From the UHGV virus genome UHGV-0326994: DNA of 64,000 nt; one strand, written 5' to 3'. Below the pieces are notes generated by a model, which saw only the letters and a list, made by a program, of their open reading frames with translations, searched no databases and was not told where the DNA came from. The first letter of the stretch is position 1, and each line of letters begins with the position of its first letter. A program made the position numbers and the translations under genes. Below are positions 5,236 through 6,193 of this stretch, piece by piece. This DNA is from a virus.

Positions 5236-5691
5236 CATTAAATTATCTTTGTAGATAAGCTACCCAGACTTGCTTAAGGTCTGTAGCGATGTGCCTTGTT
5301 GGGTTTAAATCTAGAATTTACCCTTTCACCCTTTGTGGTCGCATACTCACAGGTAAGCTTAATAGCTCACCTACAAAGATAATTACCAGACCGTTGTTTA
5401 TCATCTTAAGTGCTACCATTACACCAACTCGACATCTGCCGAGTGAAGGAATCGAACCTTCGCCTTTTCTTTACCGGAGAAATAGATTGTTTAAGTTTTG
5501 CTGTAAACGGTCTTCTGTAAATTTGTTGAGCCAGACCAAGTTTTAAATTTTCAAAATTAAATTGGCTTGAAATTTCATACATTCTTGCTGAATTTGGTCT
5601 TCTGCTCCTTTAAAGAATACTCGCAAGAACTCTTTAAGGGAGGGGCTAAATAGCCCTCTCAAAACATCATTTTGAAATACTTATTATAATT

Positions 5692-5769
5692 TGGCGGTTA
5701 CGAAGGGATTTGAACCCTCATCATCTCCCGTGACAGGGGAGTATTTTAACCAGATTAAACTACATAACC
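5692..5769 (-). tRNA. tRNA-Asp (GTC)
   Basis: Acceptor GGTTATG/CGTAACC, anticodon stem CTCCC/GGGAG, loop CTGTCAC. Confidence 0.7.
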
Positions 5770-5774
5770 TTTAT

Positions 5775-5862
5775 TGGTGTGCCGTGTAGGAGTCGAACCT
5801 ACCGAGTCTCAATGACAAGGGATTTACAGTCCCCACCGCTACCATCTACGGGATAACGACAC
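5775..5862 (-). tRNA. tRNA-Tyr (GTA), class II
   Basis: 88 nt, acceptor GTGTCGT/ACGGCAC, anticodon stem GGGGA/TCCCT, loop CTGTAAA, long variable arm. Confidence 0.65.
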
Positions 5863-5871
5863 ATTTAAATT

Positions 5872-5948
5872 TGGCGGTTAGTCAGGGATTCGAACCCTGT
5901 GCCATTCGCTTAACAGGCGACCGCACATACCTTATGTGCTTCCTAACC
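5872..5948 (-). tRNA. tRNA-Asn (GTT)
   Basis: Acceptor GGTTAGG/ACTAACC, D-stem GCAC/GTGC, anticodon stem TCGC/GCGA, loop CTGTTAA. Confidence 0.65.
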
Positions 5949-6024
5949 TTAATACATTGCCAGACCGTGTTTTTCTTTTATCCGCAAAAAGTAGTTTGTT
6001 GCTGAATACGGTCTTCTGCAAAAT

Positions 6025-6100
6025 TGGAGGCGGGTGCAGGAGTCGAACCTGCCGATACCATGCTAATGAGACATGTGAGACGCCCTTTCTCTATACCCGC
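6025..6100 (-). tRNA. tRNA-Met (CAT), second copy
   Basis: Acceptor (T)GCGGGT/ACCCGCC, D-stem GAGA/TCTC, anticodon stem CATGT/GCATG, loop CTCATTA. Confidence 0.55.
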
Positions 6101-6193
6101 AATTCTTAATGACCAGACCAAATCTCTTCTTTGTCCGATTGAATGTCAGATGAATAAGATTAAATTTGCTGCAATTGGTCTTCTGTCAAAACT

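What the first reader, a model, noticed from the sequence alone, without database searches (positions are those of the whole stretch)
5497..6185. Recurring 20-nt motif TTGCTG-N6-GGTCTTCTG with inverted partner CCAGACC between tRNA genes
Four copies (near 5497, 5585, 5999, 6166) each pair with an upstream CCAGACC[AG] to form long-loop hairpins. Two lie immediately next to tRNA 3' ends in the tRNA sense. They could be processing or termination signals for the polycistronic tRNA transcript, or binding sites.
Basis: seen in the sequence. Interest (0 to 1): 0.45.

Follow-up and report, generated by a model that had tools for sequence, protein, structure and literature searches.

The report
Phage Y-like RNAs beside Ro60-like gene
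The repeated motif marks the conserved stem of four small non-coding RNA genes lying among the tRNA genes of a FelixO1-type phage, most likely the RNA partners of the Ro60-like protein encoded just upstream. The same protein-RNA pairing recurs in very diverse phages and seems not to have been described.

Summary
On the tRNA-sense (minus) strand the motif is CAGAAGACC-N5-CAGCAA, not N6. There are four exact copies, and each pairs with a downstream GGTCTGG.

They are not processing or termination signals. Each copy is the 5' half of a closed stem that bounds a discrete unit of 65-138 nt:
- a 4-bp outer stem that covaries between units;
- an AGA/G internal loop;
- a 7-bp helix;
- a 3-nt spacer followed by CAGCAA;
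- a variable interior.

The helix-plus-CAGCAA "handle" recurs next to homologues of the adjacent 471-aa ORF. In 155 distantly related viral and genome loci there are 106 covariance-model hits, all on the gene strand. A model trained without any Felixounavirus sequence ranks three of the four units as the top hits of the 64-kb window.

The ORF (Pfam DUF2828+DUF7788) folds like Ro60/TROVE and is 98% identical to Bas63 gp130, a reported counter-defence gene. Unit D holds a circularly permuted tRNA-like module, as bacterial YrlA Y RNAs do. Some relatives give sub-threshold Rfam YrlA hits.

Best reading: these are Y-RNA-like genes whose handle binds the phage Ro60-like protein. Binding is inferred, not shown. 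This is a new variant of a known kind.

The parts
6110..6188 (-). Unit A, a short Y-like RNA between tRNA-Glu and tRNA-Met. Outer stem P1: 6188-6185 with 6113-6110. AGA loop: 6184-6182. Helix: 6181-6175 with 6121-6115. Spacer UUG: 6174-6172. CAGCAA: 6171-6166. Conserved G: 6114.
   Evidence: Exact motif. Strict structural pattern. Model R1, trained without Felixounavirus sequences, scores it 34.8 bits, E 1e-5. P1 covaries between units.
5957..6021 (-). Unit B, a short Y-like RNA between tRNA-Met and tRNA-Asn. P1: 6021-6018 with 5960-5957. AGA: 6017-6015. Helix: 6014-6008 with 5968-5962. Spacer AUU. CAGCAA: 6004-5999. G: 5961.
   Evidence: R1 scores it 39.3 bits, E 9e-7, the best hit in the window. 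In related phages (L033, L010, L100) the interior and P1 are replaced, with GC changed to AU compensatorily, while the handle is kept.
5528..5607 (-). Unit C, a short Y-like RNA downstream of tRNA-Asp. P1: 5607-5604 with 5531-5528. AGA: 5603-5601. Helix: 5600-5594 with 5539-5533. Spacer AUU. CAGCAA: 5590-5585. G: 5532.
   Evidence: R1 scores it 32.5 bits, E 3e-5.
5383..5520 (-). Unit D, a long, YrlA-like Y RNA. P1: 5520-5517 with 5386-5383. AGA: 5516-5514. Helix: 5513-5507 with 5394-5388. Spacer UUA. CAGCAA: 5503-5498. G: 5387.
   Evidence: The fold shows the handle closing a multi-branch, cloverleaf-like domain. Some public records annotate it as "putative tRNA pseudogene" or "tRNA-OTHER".
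5405..5495 (-). Circularly permuted tRNA-like module inside unit D. Stem X: 5495-5491 with 5409-5405. V (anticodon-like) hairpin: 5482-5466. T arm: 5461-5445. Closed acceptor-like stem: 5444-5438 with 5433-5427, linker A-GAU. D arm: 5424-5410.
   Evidence: RNAfold. Partial Rfam tRNA hit at 5444-5494, 22 bits. ARAGORN calls the re-permuted sequence tRNA-Thr(GGU) but finds nothing in the native order. The arm order V-T-AS-D is that of YrlA (PMC4201824; bioRxiv 10.1101/312249).
6520..7935 (-). Ro60-like protein gene (471 aa; TROVE-like HEAT ring plus vWA domain with an invariant DxSxS motif), directly upstream of the tRNA/Y-like RNA array. It is the proposed protein partner.
   Evidence: Pfam DUF2828 + DUF7788. 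AlphaFold2 model with pLDDT 84.5. The top 12 Foldseek PDB hits are all Ro60/Rsr/phage Ro60, E about 1e-8. It is 98% identical to Bas63 gp130.
6381..6410 (-). Sigma-70-like promoter (TTGACA-18-TAAAGT, with a TG extension) just upstream of tRNA-Pro. It is the likely start of the precursor transcript that carries the units.
   Evidence: Consensus scan only. The number of such sites in the region is no higher than in shuffles, so this is a weak inference.

Best explanation
The four motif copies are the conserved protein-binding "handles" of four small non-coding RNA genes, embedded in the tRNA array of a Felixounavirus.

Each RNA closes on itself. It has a 4-bp outer stem, an AGA/G internal loop and a 7-bp helix, which is followed by a 3-nt spacer and single-stranded CAGCAA. 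Its interior is variable. In three units the interior is a short A/U-rich hairpin. In unit D it is a circularly permuted tRNA-like domain.

They are Y-RNA-like partners of the Ro60-like protein encoded immediately upstream, the orthologue of Bas63 gp130.

Proposed course of events:
1. The array is transcribed with the tRNAs. (Inferred.)
2. RNase P cleavage and 3' maturation of the flanking tRNAs release the units. (Inferred.)
3. The Ro60-like protein binds the helix plus CAGCAA. (Inferred from co-occurrence and from operator-like copies in the gene's own leader in other phages.)
4. The variable interior acts as an effector or tether module, with the tRNA mimic recruiting tRNA-binding factors or nucleases. 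(By analogy with YrlA/Yrn1-Rsr-PNPase and with phiLo Ro60-Yrl-PNPase.)
5. The resulting ribonucleoprotein acts in RNA surveillance or counter-defence.

What is shown here: the motif, its structure and covariation, its strand-specific linkage to the protein family, the Ro60-like fold, and the permuted tRNA-like module.
For: - Four exact copies, all in the tRNA sense.
- The outer stems covary between units. They are 4 bp in every genuine unit and 0-1 bp in chance matches.
- A strict structural pattern was scanned: helix starting AG, 7 bp, 3-nt spacer, CAGCAA, complement within 260 nt. In 75 distant viral loci that encode homologues of the ORF it occurs 66 times on the gene strand and once on the other. 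Shuffles give 0-2. The other 59 permutations of the hexamer give at most 4.
- Features the pattern did not demand are conserved: G after the helix in 59 of 62, and U at spacer position 2 in 58 of 62.
- An independent set of 80 genome/MAG loci gives 27 versus 2, and an unbiased hexamer search returns CAGCAA.
- Covariance model R1 was trained on 34 non-Felixounavirus instances. Its three best hits in the whole window are units B, A and C (39.3, 34.8 and 32.5 bits); the next hit scores 18.1.
- R1 gives 55 + 51 hits at E<=0.01 over 1.3 Mb. All are on the gene strand.
- Helix covariation: 98.9% of cells are paired. There are 131 double-change cells against 40.8+-5 in shuffles (0 of 500 reach it). 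Slid controls pair at 28-49%.
- The ORF folds as Ro60/TROVE+vWA. It is 98% identical to Bas63 gp130, with the same synteny and the same units.
- PhageMaP (PMC11482910) reports that gp130 is Ro60-like and counters the Ppl defence. Its authors only guessed that "some tRNA genes are possibly Y RNAs".
- Unit D re-permutes into a cloverleaf that ARAGORN accepts and has the YrlA arm order.
- Handle-bearing long units in relatives hit Rfam YrlA at 25-40 bits, with E down to 2.6e-6.
- Minimal handle hairpins abut the Shine-Dalgarno sequence of the protein gene in several lineages.
- The handle also lies next to the gene in FelixO1, Klebsiella KP13-26, Campylobacter PC14, Listeria LMTA-94, Bacillus FADO and Mycobacterium phage Faith1.
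Against: - There is no direct evidence that the RNAs accumulate, or that the protein binds them.
- None of the window units reaches any Rfam family. In particular YrlA (RF02553) does not hit unit D even at E<=10.
- The YrlA/Ro60 recognition motif, GNCGAAN0-1G or GGUCCGA, is absent.
- Pfam does not call the protein TROVE. The Ro60 relation rests on a predicted fold (TM 0.5-0.64, about 13% identity).
- Only 6 of 38 long-interior relatives have a recognisable T arm, so tRNA mimicry is not general.
- One homologue-bearing phage checked, Vibrio PG216, has no handle within 3 kb of the gene.
- Felixounaviruses lack the operator-like copy in the gene's own leader.
- RNA ends and the promoter are inferred only.
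Confidence: 0.75

Rival explanations
1. The hairpins are processing or termination signals, for example RNase III or RNase E sites or terminators. They would punctuate the polycistronic tRNA precursor and have no function as RNAs themselves.
For: Units A and B abut tRNA 3' ends, and all four lie in the tRNA sense. A stem interrupted by an asymmetric internal loop resembles phage RNase III sites (from my own knowledge of T7). In 24 of 60 related loci the gene sits among same-strand tRNAs.
Against: The handle is equally present in loci with no tRNA (L132, L144, L155, L162, L178, L183, L185). It tracks the Ro60-like gene, often lying in that gene's 5' leader. No unit is followed by a U tract or is called terminator-like. 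Most tRNA junctions in the window, with spacers of 1-9 nt, need no such element. The conserved single-stranded CAGCAA, and modular interiors that include a whole permuted tRNA, are not expected of a cleavage site.
Confidence: 0.07
2. The handles are regulatory operators or decoys only. The protein binds them to control its own synthesis or availability, and the interiors have no effector role. Alternatively, the RNAs act on a host factor, such as host Rsr, PNPase or a tRNA-targeting nuclease, rather than on the phage protein.
For: In many lineages minimal hairpin versions sit 0-60 nt from the start codon, next to the Shine-Dalgarno sequence (L127 4954, L131 1764, L136 2859, L178, L183, L187, L193). 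The interiors of units A-C vary freely between closely related phages. Salmonella hosts encode Rsr and YrlA/YrlB (PMC4201824).
Against: Felixounaviruses have no copy in the gene's leader. They nevertheless keep four free-standing units, including a conserved tRNA mimic. Long interiors are conserved within lineages, for example the GUCCCUUACA group. The handle differs from the host Rsr motif GNCGAAG. Many hosts of these phages, such as E. coli K-12, lack Rsr (from my own knowledge).
Confidence: 0.12
3. The units are decayed tRNA genes or recombination scars left by turnover of tRNA-gene cassettes and homing-endonuclease traffic. On this view the repeated motif is a recombination or target site at the DNA level.
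For: Unit D contains tRNA-derived arms, and some records annotate it as a tRNA pseudogene. Gene content between tRNAs varies among strains; for example an ORF (not characterised here) is inserted between tRNA-Tyr and tRNA-Asp in L033. Unit B is swapped for a different unit in some strains.
Against: The evidence points to selection on an RNA structure, not a DNA site:
- Helix pairs change compensatorily while pairing is kept, across proteins only 30-48% identical.
- All 106 hits are on one strand.
- The motif is conserved from Felixounavirus to phages of Listeria, Campylobacter, Bacillus and Mycobacterium.
- In unit D all four tRNA arms are intact, and the acceptor stem is closed by a 4-nt linker. 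That is a permutation, not decay.
Confidence: 0.03

Closest known systems
Bacterial YrlA/YrlB Y RNAs with Rsr (Ro60), Rfam RF02553 (Chen et al. 2014, PMC4201824; Wang et al. 2018, bioRxiv 10.1101/312249)
   Same: These are small RNAs encoded next to a Ro60-type ring protein, on the same strand. A terminal stem made from the 5' and 3' ends carries a conserved protein-binding element near the 5' end. They are modular. One member (YrlA, like unit D) carries a circularly permuted tRNA-like domain ordered V-T-closed acceptor stem-D. A shorter member (YrlB, like units A-C) lacks it. Unit D's 7-bp closed acceptor stem resembles that of M. smegmatis YrlA, which is an RNase P substrate.
   Different: The recognition element differs: an AGR-helix plus NUW-CAGCAA in place of GNCGAAN0-1G. 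No window unit matches RF02553, and relatives reach only 25-40 bits against a gathering score of 69. The protein belongs to Pfam DUF2828/DUF7788, not to the TROVE family. The genes lie inside a phage tRNA array, not in an rsr-rtcBA operon. Four copies are present.
Thermus phage phiLo Ro60 with Yrl1/Yrl2 (PMC12135203)
   Same: This is a phage-encoded Ro60-like ring protein with two or more Y-like RNAs encoded beside it. It has been proposed to co-opt host PNPase and help the phage evade defence. phiLo Ro60 structures (9kop, 9l5y) are among the top fold matches of the window ORF.
   Different: The phiLo Yrls were recognised by a CGAA motif in an internal bulge, which is a different handle. They have no tRNA-array context. 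Binding was shown experimentally there and has not been shown here.
Deinococcus radiodurans Yrn1 and metazoan Y RNAs
   Same: They have a stem-bulge-stem Ro60-binding module plus an effector loop. Yrn1 has tRNA-like T/D features in the non-permuted orientation. Some relatives here show the same arrangement: in L160 4734-4833 and L216 3025-3135 the handle flanks a tRNA-like D-anticodon-T domain.
   Different: The sequence of the binding helix differs: GGUCCGA with a bulged C against AGRWUNN followed by CAGCAA.
Bas63 gp130 (PhageMaP preprint, PMC11482910)
   Same: It is the same protein (98% identity) in the same position upstream of the tRNA array. It was reported as structurally Ro60-like and as a counter to the Ppl defence.
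   Different: The preprint suggested that some of the annotated tRNA genes might be Y RNAs. Here the candidates are the unannotated spacers between tRNAs. In public records these are partly covered by doubtful opposite-strand ORFs (bas63_0137; FelixO1 ORF91 and ORF94).

Membership tests
Y RNA in the broad sense (non-coding RNA partner of a Ro60-type protein) | Encoded adjacent to a Ro60-type protein gene, on the same strand | tested here: met
   The units lie 330-1140 nt downstream of ORF 6520..7935(-), on the same strand. The ORF's top 12 PDB fold matches are all Ro60/Rsr. The linkage holds in 155 other loci, with all 106 model hits on the gene strand.
Y RNA in the broad sense | The 5' and 3' regions pair into a stem that carries a conserved, partly single-stranded recognition element | tested here: met
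   The 7-bp helix has compensatory changes at 6 of 7 pairs and 98.9% pairing. The adjacent CAGCAA, spacer U and 3' G are conserved. The true RNA ends are not mapped.
Y RNA in the broad sense | Physically bound by the Ro60-type protein | not testable with these tools
   This needs RIP-seq or EMSA with gp130 or its orthologue.
YrlA (Rfam RF02553) | Scores at or above the Rfam gathering threshold (69 bits) | tested here: not met
   No YrlA hit in the window at E<=10, even when only 251 nt were searched. Related handle-bearing units score 25-40 bits: L198 38.9 bits, E 2.6e-6; KP13-26 40.1 bits.
YrlA (Rfam RF02553) | GNCGAAN0-1G Rsr-binding motif near the 5' end | tested here: not met
   The 5' strand reads NNNC-AGA-AGACC. 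That contains C-A-GAAG but not the motif. The element conserved across the family is AGRWUNN-NUW-CAGCAA.
YrlA (Rfam RF02553) | tRNA-like domain ordered V, T arm, closed acceptor-like stem, D arm (a circularly permuted tRNA) | tested here: met
   Unit D only. Supported by the fold, a partial Rfam tRNA match, and ARAGORN accepting the re-permuted sequence as tRNA-Thr(GGU) while rejecting the native order.
YrlA (Rfam RF02553) | Partner protein is a Pfam TROVE-domain Ro60 orthologue | tested here: inconclusive
   Pfam gives DUF2828 + DUF7788 and no TROVE hit at E<=1. The fold search gives only Ro60-type rings as full-length matches.
Handle RNA associated with DUF2828 Ro60-like genes (family defined here) | Significant match to covariance model R1, which was built from non-Felixounavirus instances | tested here: met
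   Units B, A and C score 39.3, 34.8 and 32.5 bits (E 9e-7 to 3e-5). They are the three top hits of the window. Unit D, with its long interior, fits the strict pattern but not the global model.
Intrinsic terminator | G+C-rich hairpin followed directly by a U tract | tested here: not met
   The terminator scan calls none of the four units. The stems are followed by G and then mixed A/U.
Canonical tRNA | Detected by ARAGORN, or by Rfam tRNA at the gathering score | tested here: not met
   ARAGORN finds 25 tRNAs and none is in a unit. Unit D gives only a 22-bit partial match.
Known self-cleaving ribozymes and other Rfam families | Match to any Rfam 15 model | tested here: not met
   There is no credible hit on the units at E<=10. 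The only overlaps are snoRNA or Dictyostelium-RNA noise at E 3.9-6.

The most novel reading that the evidence does not exclude
A widespread class of phage Y RNAs has gone unrecognised. Its members share a portable handle: a 7-bp helix beginning A-U, G-C, then a 3-nt spacer and CAGCAA, with a G following the helix's 3' strand. This handle is the cognate binding site of the DUF2828 branch of Ro60-like proteins. It is fused to interchangeable effector modules: simple hairpins, permuted tRNA mimics, and whole tRNA-like domains. The same hairpin doubles as an autoregulatory operator in the protein's own leader. In Felixounaviruses the four RNAs would be the missing RNA component of the gp130 counter-defence activity against Ppl.
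Probability: 0.5. Interest if true: 0.78.

Novelty: new variant of a known kind. Interest (0 to 1): 0.7.

Why it matters
What Ro60-Y RNA particles do in bacteria and phages is still largely unknown. Known bacterial and phage Y RNAs were found by one motif (CGAA) next to proteins annotated as TROVE.

This finding points to a second, much larger protein-RNA pairing. tblastn finds homologues of the protein in 710 phage records, including FelixO1 and phages of Listeria, Campylobacter, Bacillus, Klebsiella and Mycobacterium. The RNA handle is different, and neither Rfam nor genome annotation captures it. In some public records, doubtful opposite-strand ORFs cover parts of these RNA genes.

In the E. 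coli phage Bas63 the protein already has a knock-out phenotype: loss of protection against the Ppl defence. The RNA partners named here therefore make the mechanism directly testable in a tractable system. The work also supplies a simple search model for annotating these RNAs.

Tried and rejected
- **The pattern as written (N6).** No match. The spacing is N5.
- **Known RNA families.** Rfam at E<=10 on 8 kb, and again on 251 nt, gave nothing on the units. That rules out the hammerhead, twister, pistol, hatchet, hairpin and HDV models. From memory I considered a likeness to hairpin-ribozyme loop A (AGAA) and to a kink-turn. The opposite strand does not fit either.
- **Integron attC-like sites or MITE ends.** Rejected because the flanks are inverted complements that differ in every copy, which indicates a stem and not a target-site duplication.
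- **Collection-wide scan for the exact 5' motif.** Most single matches were chance. They lacked GGTCTGG or an outer stem. Only Felixounavirus contigs were genuine.
- **A general outer stem (P1) in distant lineages.** Not above a flank-shuffling control. P1 was seen only in Felixounavirus units.
- **tRNA-like interiors as a general rule.** Only 6 of 38 long relatives have a T arm.
- **A fifth unit at 2253-2461(-).** It has a 4-nt spacer and lies inside ORF 1948..2505. Probably chance, although it folds well (z -3.3).
- **A plus-strand match at 57528-57645.** It lies inside ORF 57517..57729 and is not structured (z 0.26). Treated as chance.
- **MAFFT/RNAalifold alignment of six YrlA-type long units.** It recovered only the handle and the T arm. 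The alignment was too poor to assess the acceptor-like and D arms.
- **A covariance model for long forms.** Not attempted.
- **Literature.** Searches for DUF2828, and for Bas63 with Ro60, found no description of these RNAs. The library does not cover subscription journals.
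Full report
**What the window is.** The region is 98% identical to the tRNA region of FelixO1-type phages of E. coli and Salmonella, genus Felixounavirus. All 25 tRNA genes lie on the minus strand, so the finding has to be read in reverse complement.

**Checking the observation.** The pattern as written, TTGCTG-N6-GGTCTTCTG, has no match. With N5 it becomes CAGAAGACC-N5-CAGCAA in the tRNA sense, and that has four exact copies at 5498-5517, 5585-5604, 5999-6018 and 6166-6185, all on the minus strand. The only other match in 64 kb needs three mismatches.

**Anatomy of a unit.** Read as RNA, each unit has these parts from 5' to 3':
- an outer stem of 4 bp;
- AGA, opposite a single G;
- a 7-bp helix, AGACCNN with N'N'GGUCU;
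- a 3-nt spacer;
- CAGCAA;
- a variable interior.

The outer stems differ in every unit and are always complementary: TGAC/GTCA, TTGC/GCAA, GAGC/GCTC, TTAC/GTAA. In 28 distinct genuine units from related phages the outer stem is always 4 bp. In chance matches of the 5' motif from unrelated contigs it is 0-1 bp.

Related Felixounaviruses replace the whole interior of units A and B, and change the outer stem of B from G-C to A-U compensatorily. They keep the handle.

The units span 6188-6110 (A), 6021-5957 (B), 5607-5528 (C) and 5520-5383 (D). Where most other tRNA pairs in the array are 1-9 nt apart, units A and B fill tRNA-sized gaps between adjacent tRNAs, and C and D fill part of the longer gap between tRNA-Asp and tRNA-Lys.

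**Unit D.** Its interior folds into a multi-branch domain. In order it contains a 5-bp hairpin with a 7-nt loop, a canonical T arm (GAAGG-UUCGAUU-CCUUC), a 7-bp acceptor-like stem closed by A-GAU, and a D arm (GUGU-AAUGGUA-GCAC). A further stem (CUUAA/UUAAG) leads back into the handle.

ARAGORN finds no tRNA in the native sequence. If the acceptor loop is opened and the D arm is joined to the hairpin, it calls a normal tRNA-Thr(GGU) cloverleaf. Unit D therefore carries a circularly permuted tRNA-like module.

This is the architecture described for bacterial YrlA Y RNAs: V, T, closed acceptor stem and D, with the ends in the anticodon-stem position (PMC4201824). [quoted passage not shown]

**The neighbouring protein.** The ORF immediately upstream on the same strand (6520..7935, 471 aa) matches Pfam DUF2828 and DUF7788. 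An AlphaFold2 model built on 33 homologues (pLDDT 84.5) has only Ro60-type rings as its 12 best PDB matches. These are Xenopus and human Ro60, Deinococcus Rsr and Thermus phage phiLo Ro60, with E about 1e-8 and full-length alignments. The vWA DxSxS motif is invariant in the family.

The protein is 98% identical to Bas63 gp130, and the synteny is identical. The PhageMaP preprint reports gp130 as Ro60-like and as a counter to the Ppl defence. [quoted passage not shown]

**Does the RNA motif travel with the protein?** I fetched 75 viral loci with homologues at 39-48% identity and 80 loci from genome and MAG assemblies at 33-42%. Next to these genes, always on the gene strand, the same handle recurs. 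Its consensus is (W)(W)A, then AGRWUNN, then NUW, then CAGCAA, then an interior of 9-244 nt, then N'N'AWYCU, then G.

The counts for a strict pattern are:

| Set | Gene strand | Opposite strand | Controls |
|---|---|---|---|
| 75 viral loci | 66 | 1 | shuffles 0-2; other 59 permutations of the hexamer at most 4, median 1 |
| 80 genome/MAG loci | 27 | 2 | hexamer search with no prior returns CAGCAA 20 times, next best 3 |

Features the pattern did not demand are also conserved. The base after the helix is G in 59 of 62, spacer position 2 is U in 58 of 62, and helix position 5 is U in 52 of 62.

The element conserved across the whole family is the helix geometry plus CAGCAA.

**An independent membership test.** I built covariance model R1 from 34 short-form instances, none from a Felixounavirus. 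With filters off, on both strands of the whole window, its three best hits are units B (39.3 bits, E 9e-7), A (34.8) and C (32.5). The fourth hit scores 18.1 bits.

Over the 155 other loci R1 gives 55 + 51 hits at E<=0.01, and every one is on the gene strand. On the resulting alignment the helix is 98.9% paired. Six of seven pairs show compensatory changes. There are 131 double-change cells against 40.8+-5 in column shuffles (0 of 500 reach it), and registers slid by 1-3 columns pair at 28-49%. That alignment is fitted to the model, so the strand asymmetry and the recovery of the untrained window units are the cleaner evidence.

**Link to known Y RNAs.** Rfam has a YrlA model (RF02553). It does not hit the window. 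It does hit handle-bearing long units in relatives, below its gathering score of 69 bits: L198 9497-9612 (38.9 bits, E 2.6e-6), L198 6816-6928, and Klebsiella phage KP13-26 4725-4827 (40.1 bits) and 4868-4972.

In KP13-26 the Ro60-like gene is followed by two short units, then two YrlA-like units, then a tRNA array. That is the Felixounavirus layout again.

In Mycobacterium phage Faith1 the gene annotated "Ro-like RNA binding protein" is followed by a short unit, a YrlA-like unit and another short unit. All three carry CAGCAA, and an intrinsic terminator follows them.

Handle hits also flank the gene in FelixO1 itself, Campylobacter PC14, Listeria LMTA-94 and Bacillus FADO. Vibrio PG216 has none within 3 kb.

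In some relatives the handle encloses a non-permuted tRNA-like domain (L160 4734-4833, which ARAGORN calls tRNA-Thr(UGU)). That recalls the Yrn1 orientation.

**A hint about function.** In many lineages a minimal version of the handle lies in the leader of the protein gene. It is a plain hairpin whose loop starts NUW-CAGCAA. In several it touches the Shine-Dalgarno sequence, for example L131...UAAUUCU-GGAGGUAAACUAUG. This is the usual layout of a translational operator bound by the gene's own product. It is the best indirect evidence that the handle is the protein's binding site. Felixounaviruses lack this leader copy.

**Why not processing or termination signals.**
- The handle occurs beside the gene in many loci with no tRNA.
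- No unit is terminator-like.
- Most tRNA junctions in the window do without such an element.
- The stems join the two ends of discrete units.

Processing of the flanking tRNAs would probably release the units, since A and B start 3-4 nt after a tRNA 3' end and stop 8-9 nt before the next RNase P site. That step is inference.

**How it most likely works.** The array is transcribed with the tRNAs, perhaps from the promoter-like site at 6410-6381, although that is only a consensus match. tRNA maturation frees four small RNAs. The Ro60-like protein binds their handles. The interiors then act as effector modules.

By analogy with Rsr-Y RNA-PNPase in Deinococcus and Salmonella, and with phiLo Ro60-Yrl-PNPase (PMC12135203), the RNAs would gate the ring or tether it to a nuclease or a tRNA-binding factor. 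In Bas63 the protein is needed to overcome Ppl.

What is shown here: the motif, its structure and covariation, its linkage to the protein family, the Ro60-like fold, and the permuted tRNA-like module. Everything about binding and function is inferred.

**Novelty.** Y RNAs, YrlA tRNA mimicry and phage Ro60 are all known. What I could not find in Rfam 15, in public annotation or in the paper library is this handle, its pairing with the DUF2828 branch of Ro60-like proteins, and the identification of the Felixounavirus spacers as the RNA partners. Public records leave the units unannotated. In places they place opposite-strand hypothetical ORFs over them, or call unit D a tRNA pseudogene. I rate this a new variant of a known kind.

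**Limits.** There are no expression or binding data. The paper library does not cover subscription journals.

Noticed in passing
window 5237-5385 (-), between unit D and tRNA-Lys: About 150 nt fold into a 24-bp closing stem (UAAUUAUCUUUGUAG...CUACAAAGAUAAUUA) around a multi-branch core. The energy is -50.2 kcal/mol, z -4.66, and 0 of 200 shuffles fold as well. There is no Rfam match. Differences in a related phage (L033) keep the pairs (G-U to A-U, C-G to U-G). Its 5' end overlaps the outer stem of unit D. It may be a further structured RNA gene.
   Followed up: partly
window 5612-5691 (-), between tRNA-Asp and unit C: A G+C-rich hairpin (GAGAGGGCUAUUUAGCCCCUC) is followed by a roughly 33-nt palindrome (CCUUAAAGAG...UUCUUUAAAGG). 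Neither has a U tract. Function unknown.
   Followed up: no
window 4557-4635 (-): Rfam calls a tRNA here (31.7 bits, above the gathering score) that ARAGORN misses. It overlaps the start of ORF 4191..4583. By synteny with the Bas63 record it is probably the gene annotated there as tRNA-Arg (bas63_0143).
   Followed up: partly
window 2253-2461 (-), inside ORF 1948..2505: A handle-like match: AGAGCCA-UUUG-CAGCAA, then 185 nt, then UGGCUCU-G. It is conserved in other Felixounaviruses and folds well (z -3.3). However, it has a 4-nt spacer and lies within a 185-aa ORF. Probably coincidence, but not excluded as a fifth unit.
   Followed up: partly
window 57528-57645 (+): The strict handle pattern also matches here (AGACGUU-AUU-CAGCAA...AAUGUCU-G). 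The match lies inside a 70-aa ORF (57517..57729) and does not fold better than shuffles (z 0.26). Treated as chance.
   Followed up: yes
window 6478-6509 (-), just after the Ro60-like ORF: A 12-bp terminator-like hairpin overlaps a promoter-like TTGACA-17-TAATAT site. A second promoter-like site, at 6410-6381, precedes tRNA-Pro. The protein gene and the RNA array may therefore be separate transcription units.
   Followed up: no
L283 (Bas63, MZ501086.1) 16749-17023; L284 (FelixO1, AF320576.1) 4661-4912 and 5456-5686: Public records annotate small opposite-strand "hypothetical protein" ORFs (bas63_0137 and bas63_0138; FelixO1 ORF91 and ORF94) in and around the stretches that hold the Y-like units. 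These ORFs are probably spurious.
   Followed up: partly
L289 (Listeria phage LMTA-94) 1425-1976 and 5807-7018: A sub-threshold ROOL RNA match (84.4 bits, E 1e-15, gathering score 99.1) lies about 1 kb upstream of the Ro60-like gene. An RtcB-type "tRNA-splicing ligase" lies 1.3 kb downstream. This echoes the bacterial rsr-yrlBA-rtcBA arrangement.
   Followed up: no
L033 8067-8495: In one related Felixounavirus contig, an ORF of about 140 aa is inserted between tRNA-Tyr and tRNA-Asp, and that tRNA-Asp differs from the one in the window. The ORF was not characterised. The gene content of the tRNA array varies between strains.
   Followed up: no
L132/L134/L137/L140/L141/L144, about 270 nt downstream of the Ro60-like gene: A conserved GCCGAAGACU, which fits the YrlA GNCGAAG motif, lies inside a long handle-bearing unit (GGAUCG-GUA-CAGCAA, then about 220-240 nt, then CGAUCC). 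Both kinds of motif may coexist in one RNA in that lineage.
   Followed up: no
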